Source of the DNA: an uncultured Pelagibacteraceae bacterium
GTDB lineage: Bacteria > Pseudomonadota > Alphaproteobacteria > Pelagibacterales > Pelagibacteraceae
Direction: 5' to 3'
DNA: 64,000 bases
Assembly: GCA_902571915.1 (NCBI GenBank)
Contig: CACGDY010000002.1
Span: 13,006-77,005, forward strand
Position numbers and translations under genes: made by a program. Position 1 is the stretch's first letter; the number at the start of each line of letters is the position of its first letter. The notes under the pieces are model-generated. The model ran no database searches. It was not told the origin of the DNA and was given only the letters and a program-made list of their open reading frames with translations. Of the stretch, positions 45,389 to 53,321 are shown one piece after another.

Positions 45389-47528
<2,140 letters not shown>

Positions 47529-49022
47529 CTATTTCATCGTAGGCATAACAAATTCTGCATTTGACCTGATGCCTGAGGGCCATCTTGAAGTAATTGTTTT
47601 CAATTTTGTATAAAATTTTATACCCTCCATACCATGCATTGCACTGTCTCCAAATAAGGATCTTTTCCATCCACCAAAACTGTGAAAGGCCATTGGTACA
47701 GGAATTGGCACATTAATACCTACCATTCCAACTTGAATTTTGCTAGCAAAAGTTCTTCCAGCATCTCCATCTCTTGTGTAAATACTCACACCATTTCCAT
47801 ATTCATGATTATTTATTAAATTTGCTGCATCCTCAAAAGTTTTAACTCTAACTACAGACAAAACTGGTCCAAATATTTCCTCTTTATAAATTCTCATTTC
47901 TTTTTTAACATGATCGAATAAACAGCCACCAATATAAAAACCATTTTCATATCCTTGTAATTTTAAGCTTCTTCCATCAACAACAAGCTTAGCGCCTTCT
48001 TTTACTCCTAGGTCTACATAACCTTTTACTTTTTCTAAATGCTCTTTTGTTACTAGAGGTCCCATTTCAGAATTTTTATCCATTCCTGGTCCTACTTTTA
48101 AAGCTTCTGCTTTTTTTGAAAGCCTTGAAACAAGTTCATCACCTATATTTCCAACTGCTACAGCAACTGATTGTGCCATACATCTTTCTCCTGCAGATCC
48201 ATATGCTGCTCCCATTAAACCATTTACCGCACCATCTAAATCACAATCAGGCATTACTACTAAATGATTTTTAGCACCCCCTAAAGCCTGAACTCTCTTT
48301 TCATTTTTGGCCGAATTCTCATATATATATTTTGCGACTGGAGTAGAACCAACAAAACTTACTGCTTTTATATCTGAGTTTGTTAAAATTGCATCAACAG
48401 ACTCCTTGTCTCCATTAATAACATTGAAAACACCATCGGGTAAACCTGCTTCTTTTAAAAGTTCAGCTAATTTAATGGAACAAGAGGGATCTTTTTCAGA
48501 TGGTTTTAATATAAAAGTATTTCCACAAGCAATTGCAATTGGAAACATCCACATCGGTACCATTGCTGGAAAGTTAAAAGGCGTAATTCCTGAAACTACA
48601 CCTAATGGCTGTCGTATAGACCAACTATCAACATTTGTACCAACGTTCTCTGAAAATTCACCTTTCAACAAATGAGGAATACCGCAAGCAAATTCAACAA
48701 CTTCTAAGCCTCGAGTTAGTGAACCTTTTGCGTCCTCATAAACCTTTCCATGTTCATTCACAATTAGTTGTGTAAGTTCATCAGAATTTTTTTCGATAAG
48801 TTCTTTAAATTTAAACATGACTCTAGCTCTAACTAAAGGAGGTTTTGCCGACCATTCTTGAAAAGCTTTTTTTGCTACCTCTACCGCGCTATCTAAATCT
48901 TTTTTAGACGCGATTCTTACCTCTTTTTCTTGATCGCCAGTTGCTGGATTAAAAACTTTACCCTTTTTATTTGATGTTCCAGGAATTATTTTTCCACCTA
49001 CAAAATGTTCAATTAATTTCAT
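47529..49022 (-). CDS. mmsA: CoA-acylating (methyl)malonate-semialdehyde dehydrogenase
   Basis: RGLEVVEFACG, ITPFNFPAMVP, KPSEKDP, GGAKNH, GSAGERCMA, GINVPIPVP, FGGWKRS. Confidence 0.93.
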   Translation of the reverse strand: MKLIEHFVGGKIIPGTSNKKGKVFNPATGDQEKEVRIASKKDLDSAVEVAKKAFQEWSAKPPLVRARVMFKFKELIEKNSDELTQLIVNEHGKVYEDAKGSLTRGLEVVEFACGIPHLLKGEFSENVGTNVDSWSIRQPLGVVSGITPFNFPAMVPMWMFPIAIACGNTFILKPSEKDPSCSIKLAELLKEAGLPDGVFNVINGDKESVDAILTNSDIKAVSFVGSTPVAKYIYENSAKNEKRVQALGGAKNHLVVMPDCDLDGAVNGLMGAAYGSAGERCMAQSVAVAVGNIGDELVSRLSKKAEALKVGPGMDKNSEMGPLVTKEHLEKVKGYVDLGVKEGAKLVVDGRSLKLQGYENGFYIGGCLFDHVKKEMRIYKEEIFGPVLSVVRVKTFEDAANLINNHEYGNGVSIYTRDGDAGRTFASKIQVGMVGINVPIPVPMAFHSFGGWKRSLFGDSAMHGMEGIKFYTKLKTITSRWPSGIRSNAEFVMPTMK

Positions 49023-49064: not shown

Positions 49065-49844
49065 TTAAATATTAGCTGTTGCTAACATTTTTTTTATTTC
49101 AGCAATTGCTTTTGCAGGATTTAAACCTTTTGGACAAGCGCTGGTACAGTTTAAAATTGTGTGACACCTATAAAGTTTAAGTTCGTCTGCTACTTTTTTT
49201 AATCTTGAATTTCTTTCTTCATCTCTACTATCTATAATCCAACGATAGGCTTGTAAAAGCACTGCTGGTCCCAAATATTTATCACCATTCCACCAATAAC
49301 TTGGGCAAGAGGTTGAGCAACACGCGCACATAATACATTCATATGCACCATCTAGTTTAGCTCTATCCTCTTTAGATTGAAAAATTTCTTTAGTTTCTGA
49401 CTTTGAATTTGATTTTAACCATGGCTCAATTGATTGATATTGTTTATATAAACCGTCCAAGTCACCTATTAAATCCTTTTTAACCTTAAGGTGTGGTAAT
49501 GGATAAATATTAATATCACCATCTATTTCTTTGTGGGGAGTTGTGCAGGCAAGACCATTTTTTCCATCCATATTCATTGCACACGAACCACAAACTCCAT
49601 GTGCACAAGATCTTCTATAGGCCAAAGTTGGATCAATTTCATTTTTAATTTTGTTTAAAATATCCAAAACTTTTGAGGGACAATTGTTCATATCAACTTC
49701 ATAAGTATCAATTCTAGGATTTTCCTCTGTAGACGGATCCCATCTATAAATGTTTACTTTCCTTAGATTTTTTGATCCAGTTTTATCCTTAAAATATTTA
49801 CCTTTTTTTACTTTAGAGTTATTAGGTAAACCTATTTGAGCCAT
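49065..49844 (-). CDS. sdhB: Succinate dehydrogenase iron-sulfur subunit
   Basis: [10 protein letters not shown]...[32 protein letters not shown]. Confidence 0.97.
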
Positions 49845-51619
49845 CAATAAACTCTTTCCTGAGGTGGAAAATATTGCACTTCATTAGTTAGTGTTGATTT
49901 ATGAACTTCTCTGTAACTAATTTTTGTATTTTTTCCGTCACACCAGGCAAGAGTGTGTTGCATAAATTTATTATCATCTCTTTTTGGAAAGTCTTCTCTC
50001 GCATGAGCTCCTCGACTTTCTTTTCTATTATAGGCTGAGTCAACTGTAACTACAGCTTGTCTTATTAAATTATCAAACTCTAAAGTTTCAACTAAATCAG
50101 TGTTAAAAATTAAAGATTTATCTTTAACAGATAAAGAATCTAACCCATCGTAAGTTTTTCTTATTTCATTAACACCTTCTTTAAGAGTTTTTTCAGTTCT
50201 AAAAACAGCGCATTTAGACTGCATAGTTTTCTGCATTGATAATCTTAATTCAGCTGTTCCAATATCGCCCTGTGAATTTCTTATTTTATCAAAACGATCT
50301 AAACATTTTTGAGTTTCTGATTCGCTGATCTCCTCGTGTGATGTTCCTGGTTTGATTAGCTCTGCAGCACGTTTAGCAGCAGATCTACCAAAAACAACTA
50401 AATCAATTAATGAGTTAGAACCAAGTCTATTCGCACCATGAACTGAAACACATGCTGCTTCACCTATTGCCATTAAACCTGGAACAGTTTTTTCTGAACC
50501 ATTTACAGTTAATACTTCTGCTTTATAATTTGTTGGAATACCACCCATATTATAATGAACTGTTGGAACAACAGGAATTGGCTCCTTAGTAACATCTACA
50601 TTTGCAAATAATCTCGCAGCATCAGTTATACCAGGTAATCTACTTTCGATAATATCTTTATCTAAGTGACTTAAATTAAGATGAACATGATCTTGATCTT
50701 TTCCAACTCCTCTTCCTTCATTAATCTCAATTGACATTGATCTACTCACAACATCTCTTGATGCTAAATCTTTTGCTTTAGGTGCATATCTTTCCATAAA
50801 TCTCTCACCTTTGGAATTTGTAAGATATCCTCCTTCACCTCTCGCGCCTTCTGTAATCAACGTACCATGACCATAAATTCCTGTTGGATGAAACTGCACA
50901 AATTCCATATCTTGTAATGGTAAACCTGCTCTTAGTACCATCGCATTACCATCACCTGTGCAAGTATGAGCTGATGTTGCTGAATAATATACTTTTCCAT
51001 AACCGCCTGTTGCGATTATAACAGTATGAGCTCTAAATCTATGAATAGTACCATCATTTAAATTCCAAGCAATCAAGCCTTTACACGCCCCATCTTTCAT
51101 TAATAAATCTAATGCAAAATATTCAATAAAAAATTCTGTATTATGTTTTAATGCTTGTCCATACAAAGTATGTAAAATTGCATGACCTGTTCTATCAGCG
51201 GCTGCACAAGTTCTTTGAACAATCCCGTTACCATAATTTTTAGTCATGCCGCCAAAAGGTCTTTGGTAAATTTTACCATCTTCAGTTCTACTGAAGGGAA
51301 CACCATATTTTTCTAATTCAATTACTGCTTTTGGTGCTTCTTTACATAAATACTCAATACTGTCCTGATCACCTAACCAATCAGCTCCTTTAACTGTATC
51401 ATACATATGCCATCGCCAATCATCTTCACCCATATTCCCTAGAGCTGCAGAAATTCCTCCCTGGGCAGCTGAGGTATGACTTCTAGTTGGAAAAACTTTT
51501 GAAATACATGCAGTTTTTAATCCAGCTTCACTTAAACCAACTGCAGCTCTTAAGCCTGAGCCACCTGCTCCTAAAACAACCACATCATATTCATGATTTA
51601 TTATTTTATACGAACTCAT
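49844..51619 (-). CDS. sdhA: Succinate dehydrogenase flavoprotein subunit
   Basis: [10 protein letters not shown] (covalent FAD His), [24 protein letters not shown]. Confidence 0.98.
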
Positions 51620-51939
51620 AATCTAGTTATTAATATAATTGTAATTAGAGGAATTACCACTGCTGATGTATATAAAAATGTGTTTGCGACATTTTTGATT
51701 TTAATATTTTTAATATAGTCCTCAAAAACCTCACTAATACTCAATGCAGAGAAAAAATATGCATTTATGATAAAGAGACTAAATAAAAACTTAGATAAAG
51801 GATCTGTAAAAAAATTTACAACTGTTGAATAATCTTGATCATAAATTCTTATAAAATTTATAATAAACCACAACATAAATGGAACAAGTATTGCCCCTGT
51901 TATCTTTAAAAATATCCATTTTTTTGTTGCGTTTATCAT
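51616..51939 (-). CDS. sdhD: Succinate dehydrogenase membrane anchor subunit D (no histidine)
   Basis: Three hydrophobic helices and the EDY quinone motif; lies between sdhC and sdhA. Start moved to the ATG at 51939. Confidence 0.88.
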
Positions 51940-51940
51940 T

Positions 51941-52324
51941 TTAAAAAATATTTTTACCAATTAAATAAAAAATCACAGTAAAAATTATAGAACCAAATAT
52001 AACAATTAAACCAGTTATTTTTGATATTTTAAGTTCAAATCCAAAACCTAAATCCATAATTAAATGTCTAATCTCACTCAAAATTTGAAAAGAGAAAGAC
52101 CATGTTATTCCAAGAATAACGAATTTACCCATAAGTGAATTTAAAAATAAATAAATCGTATCGTAACTATTTTGGCTTAGGACAAGAAGCGAAACCATAA
52201 GACAAATTAATGTAATTGAAATTATATTAATAATTCCAGTTATTCTATGAGAAATAGAAACTAATGAGGAGACATGCCATTTATAAATTTGAATATGAGG
52301 AGATAAGGGTGATTTATTTTCCAT
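51941..52324 (-). CDS. sdhC: Succinate dehydrogenase cytochrome b556-family subunit C
   Basis: PLSPHIQIY, SISHRITG, IRHLIMDLG. Confidence 0.93.
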   Translation of the reverse strand: MENKSPLSPHIQIYKWHVSSLVSISHRITGIINIISITLICLMVSLLVLSQNSYDTIYLFLNSLMGKFVILGITWSFSFQILSEIRHLIMDLGFGFELKISKITGLIVIFGSIIFTVIFYLIGKNIF

Positions 52325-53321
52325 AAAAATTATTTTTAATTAACGTTTCTGCTATTTCCACAGCATTCAAAGCTGCACCTCTTAAAAGATTATCTGAAAC
52401 AATCCACAAGTTTAATCCATTTTTTACTGTTCTATCTTCTCTGATCCTTGAGATAAATGTATCATCTTTTCCTTCAGCATCCAAGGGTGTTGTATAACCA
52501 CCATCAACTCTTTCATCAATCACCTTGCAGCCTTTAAAATTATCTAAAGCTTCTCTTACTCTTTCAAGAGAATAATTTTTTTCAAATTGTAAATTTACTG
52601 ACTCTGAGTGAGATACAGATATCGGTAGTCGCACACACGTTGCTGTTAAATCAATCTTTTCATCTAAAATTTTTTTAGTTTCATTGCTCATTTTTAATTC
52701 CTCTTTCGTATAACCATTGTCAGAAAAAATATCTATATGAGGAATAGCATTGAAAGCTATTGTTTTTGTAAAGTTTTTAGATTCAATTTTTTTACCTTCC
52801 AAAGCTAATTTAGTTTGTTCTATTAATTCATCCATTGATGCTTTTCCCGCACCTGAAACAGATTGGTATGTGGATACTACTACTCTTTTAATAATAAACA
52901 AATCATGTAATGGTTTTAGAGCCATTACTAGTTGTGCAGTTGAACAATTTGGATTGGCAATAATATTTTTTTTTATATTATTTAAATGATTAGAGTTCAC
53001 TTGCGGAACTATTAAAGGCACCTCAGGATCCATTCTAAAATAACTAGAATTGTCAATTACAATACAATCTTTTGCTGCTTTTACAGCAAATTTTTTTGAA
53101 ATTTTTCCACCAGCTGCAAAAAAAGCTATCTTAACTTTTGAAAAATCAAAATTTTCAAGATCTGATACTTCTAACTCCTTGCCCTTAAAATTTATCTTTT
53201 TTCCAGTGCTTTTTGATGAAGCAACCAAGTATAATTTGTCAATAGGCAGTTCTTTCTTTTCAAGAACTTCCAATGTTTTTCTTCCTACATTTCCTGTAGC
53301 CCCAACTATTACAATATTCAT
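52314..53321 (-). CDS. asd: Aspartate-semialdehyde dehydrogenase
   Basis: GATGNVG, IDNSSYFRM, ANPNCST, STYQSVSGAG, DNLLRGAALN. Confidence 0.97.
   Translation of the reverse strand: MNIVIVGATGNVGRKTLEVLEKKELPIDKLYLVASSKSTGKKINFKGKELEVSDLENFDFSKVKIAFFAAGGKISKKFAVKAAKDCIVIDNSSYFRMDPEVPLIVPQVNSNHLNNIKKNIIANPNCSTAQLVMALKPLHDLFIIKRVVVSTYQSVSGAGKASMDELIEQTKLALEGKKIESKNFTKTIAFNAIPHIDIFSDNGYTKEELKMSNETKKILDEKIDLTATCVRLPISVSHSESVNLQFEKNYSLERVREALDNFKGCKVIDERVDGGYTTPLDAEGKDDTFISRIREDRTVKNGLNLWIVSDNLLRGAALNAVEIAETLIKNNFYGK

What the first reader, a model, noticed from the sequence alone, without database searches (positions are those of the whole stretch)
51616..52324. Both heme b axial histidines are lost from SdhC and SdhD: a probable naturally heme-less complex II
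Seen: SdhC aligns to E. coli numbering with a constant offset of 4 (S23/R27/H87 = S27/R31/H91). The heme ligand H84 position is Gln80 (codon 52085-52087), and the following conserved Gly is Glu (FQILSEIRH versus YHVVVGIRH). SdhD aligns with offset 8 (D74/Y75 = D82/Y83). The H71 position is Phe63 (codon 51751-51753), R20 is Lys, and the whole protein has no His or Cys. Quinone-site residues (SdhC Ser and Arg, SdhD Asp-Tyr, SdhB CHT His) are kept. Established: these two His ligate heme b556 in type C succinate:quinone reductases, and heme is dispensable for catalysis in E. coli mutants. Inference: concerted loss on both subunits, with bulky residues filling the pocket, points to a heme-free enzyme, plausibly an iron-sparing adaptation. 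Caveat: SdhC H26 and H87 remain as possible alternative ligands.
Basis: partly seen in the sequence, partly recalled or inferred. Interest (0 to 1): 0.75.

Follow-up and report, generated by a model that had tools for sequence, protein, structure and literature searches.

The report
SAR11 succinate dehydrogenase without heme ligands
This Pelagibacter (SAR11) genome has an intact succinate dehydrogenase whose membrane anchor has lost both histidines that hold its heme, so the ocean's most abundant heterotroph very probably runs a heme-free complex II, as yeast does.

Summary
In the sdhCDAB operon, SdhC has Gln80 where E. coli has the heme ligand His84. SdhD has Phe63 where E. coli has His71. 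The Gly four residues after each ligand is now Glu84 (SdhC) and Ser67 (SdhD), and SdhD contains no His or Cys. Quinone-site residues, the Fe-S motifs and the FAD histidine are intact, and both anchor genes are under purifying selection.

The substitutions are fixed across the genus Pelagibacter. A clade uniting my own sampled genus with a sister group shares SdhC Gly->Glu and SdhD Arg20->Lys, His->Phe and Gly->Thr/Ser. Within that clade the former ligand positions then drift (SdhC H/Q/F, SdhD F/Y/H/N). Subclade III relatives (HIMB114, IMCC9063, Fonsibacter) keep the canonical heme site, as do 135 of 137 other sampled Pseudomonadota.

Yeast complex II was shown heme-free by cryo-EM and carries the same kind of changes, including a ligand+4 Glu that replaces a heme propionate. 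The loss here was stepwise rather than concerted. An iron-sparing benefit is untested. No heme measurement exists for this enzyme.

This scan has already made the same finding on at least six other SAR11 genomes. I class it as a new member of a known kind (heme-free "type D" complex II).

The parts
51941..52324 (-). sdhC, the membrane anchor large subunit (127 aa). It is a homolog of cytochrome b556 but lacks the heme ligand.
   Evidence: It scores 113.3 bits against TIGR02970 (cut-off 52.3) and 94 bits against PF01127. It aligns to PDB SdhC chains.
52085..52087 (-). SdhC Gln80 codon (CAA), at the position of E. coli heme ligand His84.
   Evidence: This position is Q in 16/16 sampled genomes of the genus and in 120/120 nearest metagenome clusters.
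52073..52075 (-). SdhC Glu84 codon (GAG), at the position of the conserved Gly88 (ligand+4). I propose it stands in for a heme propionate carboxylate.
   Evidence: This position is Gly in 49/50 other alphaproteobacterial families. It is Glu in 79/80 named Pelagibacteraceae loci and in all g1 and g5 genomes. Yeast Sdh4 Glu112 provides the parallel.
51616..51939 (-). sdhD, the membrane anchor small subunit (107 aa from the ATG). It has no His and no Cys.
   Evidence: It scores 51.5 bits against TIGR02968 (cut-off 41.8). A profile alignment to E. coli SdhD gives E=4.7e-9.
51751..51753 (-). SdhD Phe63 codon (TTC), at the position of E. coli heme ligand His71.
   Evidence: This position is F in 120/120 nearest metagenome clusters.
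51739..51741 (-). SdhD Ser67 codon, at the position of the conserved Gly75 (ligand+4).
51904..51906 (-). SdhD Lys12 codon, at the position of E. coli Arg20, which binds a heme propionate. It is the proposed salt-bridge partner of SdhC Glu84.
   Evidence: The role of Arg20 in E. coli is taken from PMC3290573. The pairing with Glu84 is inference.
52244..52258 (-). SdhC Ser23, His26 and Arg27 (E. coli S27, H30, R31). These quinone-site residues are retained.
   Evidence: (zero changes across 107 rows).
51715..51720 (-). SdhD Asp74-Tyr75 (E. coli D82, Y83). These quinone-site residues are retained.
49844..51619 (-). sdhA flavoprotein (591 aa), intact. The RSHT motif of the covalent-FAD histidine is present.
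   Evidence: PF00890 426 bits and PF02910 154 bits.
49065..49847 (-). sdhB iron-sulfur protein (260 aa), intact. The cluster cysteine motifs and the CHT histidine are present.
   Evidence: PF13085 and PF13534.

Best explanation
The window carries the only succinate:quinone oxidoreductase operon (sdhCDAB) found in the held part of a Pelagibacter (SAR11) genome. Its SdhC/SdhD anchor descends from the one-heme type C anchor but no longer binds heme b. Electrons are expected to pass from FAD through [2Fe-2S], [4Fe-4S] and [3Fe-4S] to ubiquinone at the conserved proximal quinone site. That is how heme-free E. coli mutants and yeast complex II work.

The space once taken by heme is presumably filled by side chains: SdhC Gln80, Ser83 and Glu84, and SdhD Leu11, Phe63 and Ser67. 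I infer that the buried Glu84 carboxylate takes over the role of a heme propionate, pairing with SdhD Lys12 (formerly Arg20) and/or SdhC His87. This would mirror the Glu112(Sdh4)-Arg97(Sdh3) bond that replaces a propionate in yeast.

Shown here: the sequence states, their distribution among relatives and their order of appearance. Inferred: the absence of heme, the Glu-Lys pairing and any selective benefit.
For: 1. Both axial ligands and both ligand+4 glycines are replaced.

2. I scanned all columns that are at least 80% conserved in 50 other alphaproteobacterial families plus subclade III. In SdhD, every such column that changed in the genus is a heme-contact or ligand+4 position in E. coli numbering: V19, R20, A23, H71 and G75. 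In SdhC the changed columns include H84, V87 and G88. Quinone-site columns (SdhC S27, R31, H91; SdhD D82, Y83) show zero changes on a tree of 107 rows. The contact list comes from PMC3290573. Fisher's exact test on contact versus changed columns gives p=0.0016; this is descriptive only.

3. The former ligand positions show relaxed constraint. Inside the clade that carries SdhC Glu, the SdhC position is H, Q or F, with a minimum of 6 changes counted over the whole 107-row tree. The SdhD position is F, Y, H or N, with a minimum of 9 changes on the same count. Glu itself is present in 79/80 named loci.

4. The genes are not decaying. dN/dS is 0.09-0.25 for sdhC and 0.12-0.34 for sdhD. All 120 nearest clusters of each protein carry the same residues.

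5. Five genomes at 97-99% completeness (four of the genus, one g5; three are single contigs) have exactly two PF01127 genes, so there is no second heme-type anchor. Ferrochelatase is present, so heme is still made.

6. There is an experimental precedent. Yeast complex II has no heme by cryo-EM and spectra. Sdh4 His->Tyr108 blocks the pocket although the Sdh3 His is kept, and Sdh4 Glu112 (ligand+4), Lys73 and Thr84 replace the propionate contacts (PMC12508127; PMC13066397).

7. A heme-free E. coli Sdh variant keeps significant activity and supports growth on succinate (PMC3290573).
Against: - There is no biochemical or structural measurement of heme for any SAR11 enzyme. Absence of ligands is an inference from sequence.
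- SdhC His26 and His87 remain, although they are equally conserved in heme-containing homologs.
- The sister group keeps SdhC His at the ligand position.
- Two lineages of the genus carry His again at the SdhD position (G149, L160).
- For yeast, a 1999 paper whose title appears in the reference list of PMC3290573 reported stoichiometric cytochrome b562, and the cryo-EM structures later showed no heme. So heme content cannot be taken as settled without measuring it.
- The Glu84-Lys12 pairing could not be tested, because no coordinates were available.
Confidence: 0.8

Rival explanations
1. Heme b is still bound, through other ligands. Candidates are SdhC His26 and His87, a Met such as SdhD Met22, or in the sister group the single remaining SdhC His (five-coordinate heme).
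For: SdhC H26 and H87 are invariant. SdhD Met22 appears to be specific to the clade by inspection of the alignment. The g5-like group keeps SdhC His.
Against: H26 and H87 are equally invariant in heme-containing homologs, where they contact a pyrrole ring and a propionate rather than the iron (PMC3290573). The ligand+4 Gly that lets the porphyrin pack against the helix is replaced by Glu in SdhC and by Ser/Thr in SdhD. The former ligand positions drift freely. Yeast, which retains one His, is heme-free.
Confidence: 0.1
2. The former heme pocket now holds another molecule, such as a lipid or a second quinone as at the distal site of E. coli fumarate reductase, rather than being closed by side chains.
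For: The yeast paper reports a more deeply buried conserved phospholipid that helps stabilise the heme-free anchor. PMC12508127 describes additional density in heme-free E. coli QFR.
Against: Nothing in the sequence calls for it. The substitutions are towards bulkier or charged residues, which would shrink the cavity. No structure was available to examine.
Confidence: 0.1
3. The anchor genes are decaying through relaxed selection or pseudogenisation in a streamlined genome, and complex II is not functional as a quinone reductase.
For: Two other small-genome alphaproteobacteria show similar erosion (L092, L228).
Against: dN/dS is well below 1. There are no stops or frameshifts. The replacement residues are identical in 120/120 nearest clusters. 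Quinone-site residues are invariant. sdhA and sdhB are intact. In RNA libraries, contigs at 90% identity or better cover sdhA/B heavily, and one run holds near-identical sdhC and sdhD contigs (weak, because DNA carry-over is not excluded).
Confidence: 0.02

Closest known systems
Saccharomyces cerevisiae mitochondrial complex II (Sdh1-4). It is heme-free by cryo-EM and spectroscopy and is classed as type D (PMC12508127; PMC13066397; PDB 9KPS, 9KQ3, 9QDL listed).
   Same: The anchor is SdhC/SdhD-type and descends from the one-heme form. An axial His is replaced by an aromatic residue: Tyr108 in Sdh4 compared with Phe63 here, and Tyr in basal lineages of the genus. A Glu sits at ligand+4. An Arg/Lys sits on transmembrane helix 1 of the small subunit. 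The quinone site and Fe-S chain are kept.
   Different: Yeast keeps the large-subunit His, whereas Pelagibacter has lost both. The sister group has the yeast-like state. The ligand+4 Glu is on Sdh4 (SdhD) in yeast but on SdhC here, the pseudo-symmetric partner. The SAR11 case is bacterial and arose independently. For SAR11 no structure or spectrum exists.
E. coli SdhCDAB, the type C succinate:quinone oxidoreductase with heme b556 (PDB 1NEK), and its engineered heme-free variants.
   Same: Same operon order and same families (TIGR02970/TIGR02968). The alignment is ungapped and the quinone-site residues are identical (S27, R31, D82, Y83). The heme-free mutant is active and supports growth.
   Different: E. 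coli binds heme through SdhC H84 and SdhD H71. Here those positions are Gln and Phe, Gly88 and Gly75 are Glu and Ser, and Arg20 is Lys. In E. coli the heme-free state is a laboratory mutant that is less stable when isolated.
E. coli fumarate reductase FrdABCD, the classical heme-free type D enzyme.
   Same: It has two hydrophobic anchor subunits and no heme.
   Different: It belongs to different anchor families. SdhC scores only 21.2 bits against PF02313 (cut-off 25) and 16.6 bits against NF003977 (cut-off 60). It is a menaquinol:fumarate enzyme with two quinone sites.
Heme-type SdhCD of SAR11 subclade III (HIMB114, IMCC9063, Candidatus Fonsibacter ubiquis).
   Same: They are the closest relatives outside the heme-less clade, at 41-48% SdhC identity, with the same operon.
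   Different: They keep His and Gly in both subunits and keep Arg20 (the HNG / QRAHG signature).

Membership tests
Type C succinate:quinone oxidoreductase (SdhCDAB, one heme b) | Four-gene sdhCDAB unit with a flavoprotein, an Fe-S protein and two three-helix anchor subunits. | tested here: met
   ORFs and Pfam hits.
Type C succinate:quinone oxidoreductase (SdhCDAB, one heme b) | SdhC and SdhD score above the curated cut-offs of TIGR02970 and TIGR02968. | tested here: met
   113.3 bits against a cut-off of 52.3, and 51.5 bits against a cut-off of 41.8.
Type C succinate:quinone oxidoreductase (SdhCDAB, one heme b) | Bis-histidine ligation of heme b: SdhC His84 and SdhD His71 in E. coli numbering. 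| tested here: not met
   The positions are Gln80 and Phe63, and SdhD has no His at all.
Type C succinate:quinone oxidoreductase (SdhCDAB, one heme b) | Proximal quinone-site residues: SdhC Ser27 and Arg31, SdhD Asp82 and Tyr83, SdhB His207. | tested here: met
   S23, R27, D74, Y75 and the CHT motif are present.
Type C succinate:quinone oxidoreductase (SdhCDAB, one heme b) | Stoichiometric heme b in the isolated enzyme. | not testable with these tools
   This needs spectra or a hemochrome assay.
Type D (heme-free, two anchor subunits) complex II | Two hydrophobic anchor subunits. | tested here: met
   sdhC and sdhD are separate genes, and PF01127 gives exactly two hits, the adjacent sdhC and sdhD, in five genomes at 97-99% completeness.
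Type D (heme-free, two anchor subunits) complex II | No heme in the anchor. | tested here: inconclusive
   The ligands and pocket glycines are lost and the pocket positions are remodelled. Heme content itself was not measured.
E. coli-type FrdC/FrdD anchor families | Scores above the cut-offs of PF02313 and NF003977. | tested here: not met
   21.2 bits against a cut-off of 25, and 16.6 bits against a cut-off of 60.

The most novel reading that the evidence does not exclude
The heme b site of complex II has been dismantled repeatedly and stepwise within Pelagibacterales: once at the base of the Pelagibacter plus g5 clade, and at least once more in the second family of the order. A membrane-buried Glu takes over the role of a heme propionate, convergently with yeast. 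On this reading the loss was selected because it lowers the heme and iron quota or the assembly cost of the most abundant heterotroph in the iron-poor ocean. Cultured heme-type strains (HIMB114, IMCC9063, Fonsibacter) and ligand-less strains (RS39, HIMB1485, Ca. P. giovannonii) would then form a natural experiment on what the complex II heme is for.
Probability: 0.3. Interest if true: 0.75.

Novelty: new member of a known kind. Interest (0 to 1): 0.6.

Why it matters
The function of the heme in complex II is a long-standing open question. It lies off the direct electron path, and lab mutants work without it. Natural heme-free forms are documented for E. coli fumarate reductase, yeast and Tetrahymena. 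My paper searches found no report for a bacterial SdhCDAB or for SAR11.

If confirmed, a very abundant marine bacterium respires succinate without this heme. Close cultured relatives with and without the ligands would allow direct tests of what the heme contributes to stability, reactive-oxygen control and iron economy.

It also bears on annotation. These proteins are named "cytochrome b556 subunit" in databases, although they probably bind no heme. Heme and iron quota estimates for SAR11 should take this into account.

Tried and rejected
- Complex prediction on SdhC plus SdhD, using my own 43-row alignments and no heme, gave "weak support": score 0.37, best of 3 controls 0.00, partner pLDDT at least 71, and runs agreeing in at least 85% of contacts. 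That mark was reached by 58 of 80 solved complexes and 2 of 110 mismatched pairs, but scores of 0.60 or under came from only 7 of those 80. This is a textbook pair, so any pass may reflect likeness to solved structures. No contacts were returned, so the Glu84-Lys12 idea could not be checked.
- No tool gave coordinates, so no cavity analysis was possible.
- Metatranscriptome contigs: sdhA/B are heavily covered at 90% identity or better. sdhC/D are covered only thinly, with one run holding contigs at 51677-51827 (1 mismatch) and 52090-52291 (5 mismatches). This is a hint of transcription at best, because DNA carry-over is not excluded.
- A paper search to map named single-cell genomes to SAR11 subclades found nothing. 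The second family of the order therefore remains unnamed, apart from containing SAG-MED32.
- Pseudogene and decay reading: rejected on dN/dS and conservation.
- Fumarate-reductase-type anchor: rejected because the scores are below cut-off.
- Simple path His->Tyr->Phe: I first read the Tyr and His states in basal lineages as intermediates on this path. The tree suggests instead that Phe was ancestral for the clade and that Tyr, His and Asn are later wanderings.
- One heme-type locus, L169 (AG-404-E02), nests inside the heme-less clade in the free SdhA tree. An AU test does not reject placing it outside (p=0.37), so neither a single origin nor re-acquisition can be asserted.
Full report
**What is in the window**

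Positions 49065-52324 on the minus strand hold sdhC (51941-52324), sdhD (51616-51939 from the ATG; an upstream TTG at 51960 would add 7 residues), sdhA (49844-51619) and sdhB (49065-49847). Pfam and NCBIfam place all four in the expected families. SdhC scores 113 bits against TIGR02970 (cut-off 52.3). SdhD scores 51.5 bits against TIGR02968 (cut-off 41.8).

The window is 26-34% G+C. It lies in a 722 kb assembly that is 57% complete. The genus of that assembly also contains Candidatus Pelagibacter sp. RS39, HIMB1485 and Ca. P. giovannonii, so this is SAR11.

- phmmer against PDB chains aligns SdhC without gaps across the ligand region to avian complex II, and also matches the E. coli SdhC chain.
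- SdhD aligns without gaps to E. coli SdhD. A 43-row profile raises that match to E=4.7e-9.
- MAFFT and hmmalign alignments that include E. coli K-12 sdhCD, taken from NC_000913, give the same register.
- SdhC Gln80 (codon 52085-52087) stands at His84.
- SdhC Glu84 stands at Gly88.
- SdhD Phe63 (codon 51751-51753) stands at His71.
- SdhD Ser67 stands at Gly75, and Lys12 stands at Arg20.
- SdhD has no His or Cys.
- SdhC Ser23, His26, Arg27 and His87, SdhD Asp74-Tyr75, the SdhB CHT motif and cluster cysteines, and the SdhA RSHT histidine are all present.

**Distribution within the order**

I searched 150 genomes of the order, fetched sdhCD from 40 of them and aligned them.

| Group | SdhC ligand and +4 positions | SdhD ligand and +4 positions |
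|---|---|---|
| Own genus g1 (16 genomes, window included) | Gln + Glu in all | Phe in most; Tyr in 3; His in 1; +4 is Ser/Thr/Asn |
| g5 | His kept, Gly->Glu | Phe; +4 is Thr |
| g2, g3, g4 | His + Gly | His + Gly |
| Second family f2, genus g7 | His + Gly | His + Gly |
| f2, genera g6 and g8 | Tyr; +4 is Cys or Ser | His + Gly |
| f2, genus g9 | Asn; +4 is Asp | His + Gly |

Exact-sequence look-ups name G021 (g2) as HIMB114 and G023 (g3) as Candidatus Fonsibacter ubiquis. The 90%-identity cluster of the g4 protein includes IMCC9063. These three genera therefore correspond to what I know as SAR11 subclade III.

A scan of the GTDB species genomes added 80 named Pelagibacteraceae loci. Of these, 79 have Glu at SdhC ligand+4. 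The SdhC ligand position is His in 43, Gln in 36 and Phe in 1. The SdhD ligand position is Phe 69, Tyr 6, Asn 2 and His 2, with one locus lacking an SdhD call. All 120 nearest SdhC clusters and all 120 nearest SdhD clusters from metagenomes carry Q+E and F+S respectively.

**Distribution outside the order**

I sampled one genome from each of 50 other alphaproteobacterial families. SdhC His is present in 50/50 and its Gly in 49/50. SdhD His and Gly are each present in 49/50.

One of these 50 is an unpublished genome (G182, locus L060). It is canonical. Without it the counts are 49/49 and 48/49.

A further 87 loci from a phylum-level sample are canonical in 86. One family makes up 36 of the 150 genomes sampled for this set.

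The two exceptions are both small alphaproteobacterial genomes:
- L092 (G186, 1.1 Mb, closed): SdhD His->Phe and Gly->Ser, SdhC Gly->Thr.
- L228 (G334, 1.5 Mb): SdhD His->Tyr, SdhC Gly->Cys.

**Order of events**

An SdhA+SdhB maximum-likelihood tree puts g2-g4 as sister to a clade of g5 plus g1 (SH-aLRT 100). g1 is monophyletic (100) and f2 lies outside.

On a 107-row SdhA tree the deepest branches of the heme-less clade all read SdhC His/Glu with SdhD Lys/Phe/Thr. The first step was therefore loss of the SdhD ligand together with SdhC Gly->Glu. This is the yeast-like state. SdhC His->Gln (CAY->CAA/G) followed at the base of Pelagibacter. It happened again in a small g5-like group, and one lineage went to Phe.

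Within basal Pelagibacter lineages the SdhD position wanders among Phe, Tyr, His and Asn, all reachable by single-base steps.

Minimum changes on the tree:
- SdhC ligand position: 6
- SdhD ligand position: 9
- The Gly/Glu column: 4, including the f2 states and L169
- Each quinone-site column: 0

A fixed Glu next to drifting former ligands is what one expects if the histidines lost their job while the Glu gained one.

**Which positions changed**

I scanned all columns that are at least 80% conserved in the 50 outgroup families plus subclade III.

In SdhD, the columns changed in the genus are exactly E. coli V19, R20, A23, H71 and G75.

In SdhC they are H84, V87, G88 and A40, plus three that look unrelated to heme:
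- An N-terminal Arg, which has also changed in the heme-type relatives.
- A Leu->Ile exchange.
- Trp->Met in the HLxWD motif, seen in most of the genus (12 of the 16 sampled g1 genomes).

PMC3290573 lists SdhD V19, R20 and A23 and SdhC V85 and V87 as residues within 5 Å of the heme or binding its propionates. It lists SdhC H30, R31 and H91 and SdhD Q78 as propionate or ring contacts. The contacts that also serve the quinone site (H30, R31, H91) are kept here.

A 2x2 table of contact versus changed columns gives Fisher p=0.0016. This is descriptive only, because the rows are related.

**The genes are functional**

- Pairwise dN/dS within the genus is 0.09-0.25 for sdhC and 0.12-0.34 for sdhD.
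- Five genomes at 97-99% completeness (four of the genus, one g5) have exactly two PF01127 genes, the adjacent sdhC and sdhD. There is no spare heme-type anchor.
- Ferrochelatase is present in three genomes of the genus and one g5 genome, so heme is still synthesised.
- Metatranscriptome contigs cover sdhA/B heavily. One run holds near-identical sdhC and sdhD contigs. This is weak evidence.

**Comparison with what is known**

E. coli heme-free Sdh variants retain significant activity and support growth on succinate, although the isolated enzyme is less stable (PMC3290573).

Yeast complex II lacks heme by cryo-EM and by spectra. Sdh4 Tyr108 replaces the His ligand and sits less than 4 Å from the retained Sdh3 His156, which closes the pocket (PMC12508127).

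A second yeast structure reports that the propionate contacts are replaced by three bonds: Arg97(Sdh3)-Glu112(Sdh4), Asp167(Sdh3)-Lys73(Sdh4) and Tyr157(Sdh3)-Thr84(Sdh4). The residues Tyr108, Glu112, Lys73 and Thr84 are not conserved in heme-containing enzymes (PMC13066397).

Glu112 is four residues after Tyr108, the same ligand+4 position that is Gly in heme-type anchors. SAR11 has made the equivalent change on the other, pseudo-symmetric subunit (SdhC Gln80 and Glu84). It has also changed the pseudo-symmetric Arg (SdhD R20) to Lys. PMC3290573 states that SdhD R20 and SdhC R31 occupy equivalent positions about the heme's pseudo two-fold axis.

From this I infer a Glu84-Lys12 (and/or His87) interaction that stands in for the distal propionate. 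This is inference: complex prediction gave only weak support and returned no contacts.

**Literature and earlier notes**

Four searches for SAR11 or Pelagibacter with succinate dehydrogenase and heme, or for non-conserved ligands in Alphaproteobacteria, found no paper that describes this. PMC12508127 names only E. coli QFR and Tetrahymena as earlier heme-free cases.

The scan's own index shows the same finding on at least six other SAR11 genomes, plus a Brevundimonas case. Those notes agree with my results. I reached the yeast papers independently before reading the notes. I did not test the Brevundimonas claim.

**Verdict**

The best explanation, at about 0.8, is a naturally heme-free complex II of the yeast type. 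It evolved stepwise in the lineage leading to Pelagibacter. Erosion of the same site occurred independently in the other family of the order and in two other reduced alphaproteobacteria.

Whether the loss saves iron (1 of 10 Fe atoms per complex, from the known cofactor content), reduces assembly cost or is simply tolerated is open. It is a new member of a known kind. It is interesting mainly because of the organism and because cultured strains of both types exist for a direct test.

Noticed in passing
L031-L040 (genomes G062, G014, G012, G002, G004, G024, G020, G008, G094, G106): In the second family of the order (f2; one cluster includes SAG-MED32), SdhD keeps His and Gly. SdhC has lost its ligand in three of four genera: Tyr with Gly->Cys or Ser, or Asn with Gly->Asp. 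This is a separate, mirror-image erosion of the heme site.
   Followed up: partly
L092 (G186:C1:897028-900381): A closed 1.1 Mb genome, named only as a MAG of Alphaproteobacteria, has SdhD His->Phe and Gly->Ser and SdhC Gly->Thr, on very long SdhA branches. This is an independent case outside SAR11.
   Followed up: partly
L228 (G334:C3:82412-83974): A 1.5 Mb alphaproteobacterium, in a family whose other sampled genomes are 6-7 Mb, has SdhD His->Tyr and SdhC Gly->Cys. This is another independent erosion in a reduced genome.
   Followed up: no
L169 (CACEPH010000008.1, SAG AG-404-E02): This is the only one of the 80 named Pelagibacteraceae loci with a heme-type site (SdhC His+Gly; SdhD Arg, Ala, His). 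Its SdhA nests inside the heme-less clade in the free tree, but an AU test does not reject a position outside it (p=0.37). Retention and re-acquisition both remain possible.
   Followed up: partly
L015 (G149) and L160: Two lineages of the genus carry His again at the SdhD ligand position, while SdhC still has Gln+Glu. A neighbouring lineage (L163) has Asn. This looks like neutral wandering of a former ligand site.
   Followed up: partly
window 52314-52324 and cluster 3, cluster 8: asd (52314-53321) overlaps the start of sdhC by 11 bases. In the protein collection, two 90%-identity clusters mix 123-127 aa SdhC proteins with 330-337 aa proteins (named aspartate-semialdehyde dehydrogenase in one of the two). 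This is probably a clustering artefact of overlapping or fused gene calls.
   Followed up: no
window 51937-51960: The sdhD start is ambiguous. ATG at 51939 lies one base after the sdhC stop and gives the 107 aa form that most database entries use. TTG at 51960 would give 114 aa and overlap sdhC by 20 bases.
   Followed up: partly
window 46545-49022: Directly downstream of sdhB on the same strand lie a 497 aa aldehyde dehydrogenase-like ORF (47529-49022) and a 325 aa malate/lactate dehydrogenase-like ORF (46545-47522). I identified them by eye from the translations only.
   Followed up: no
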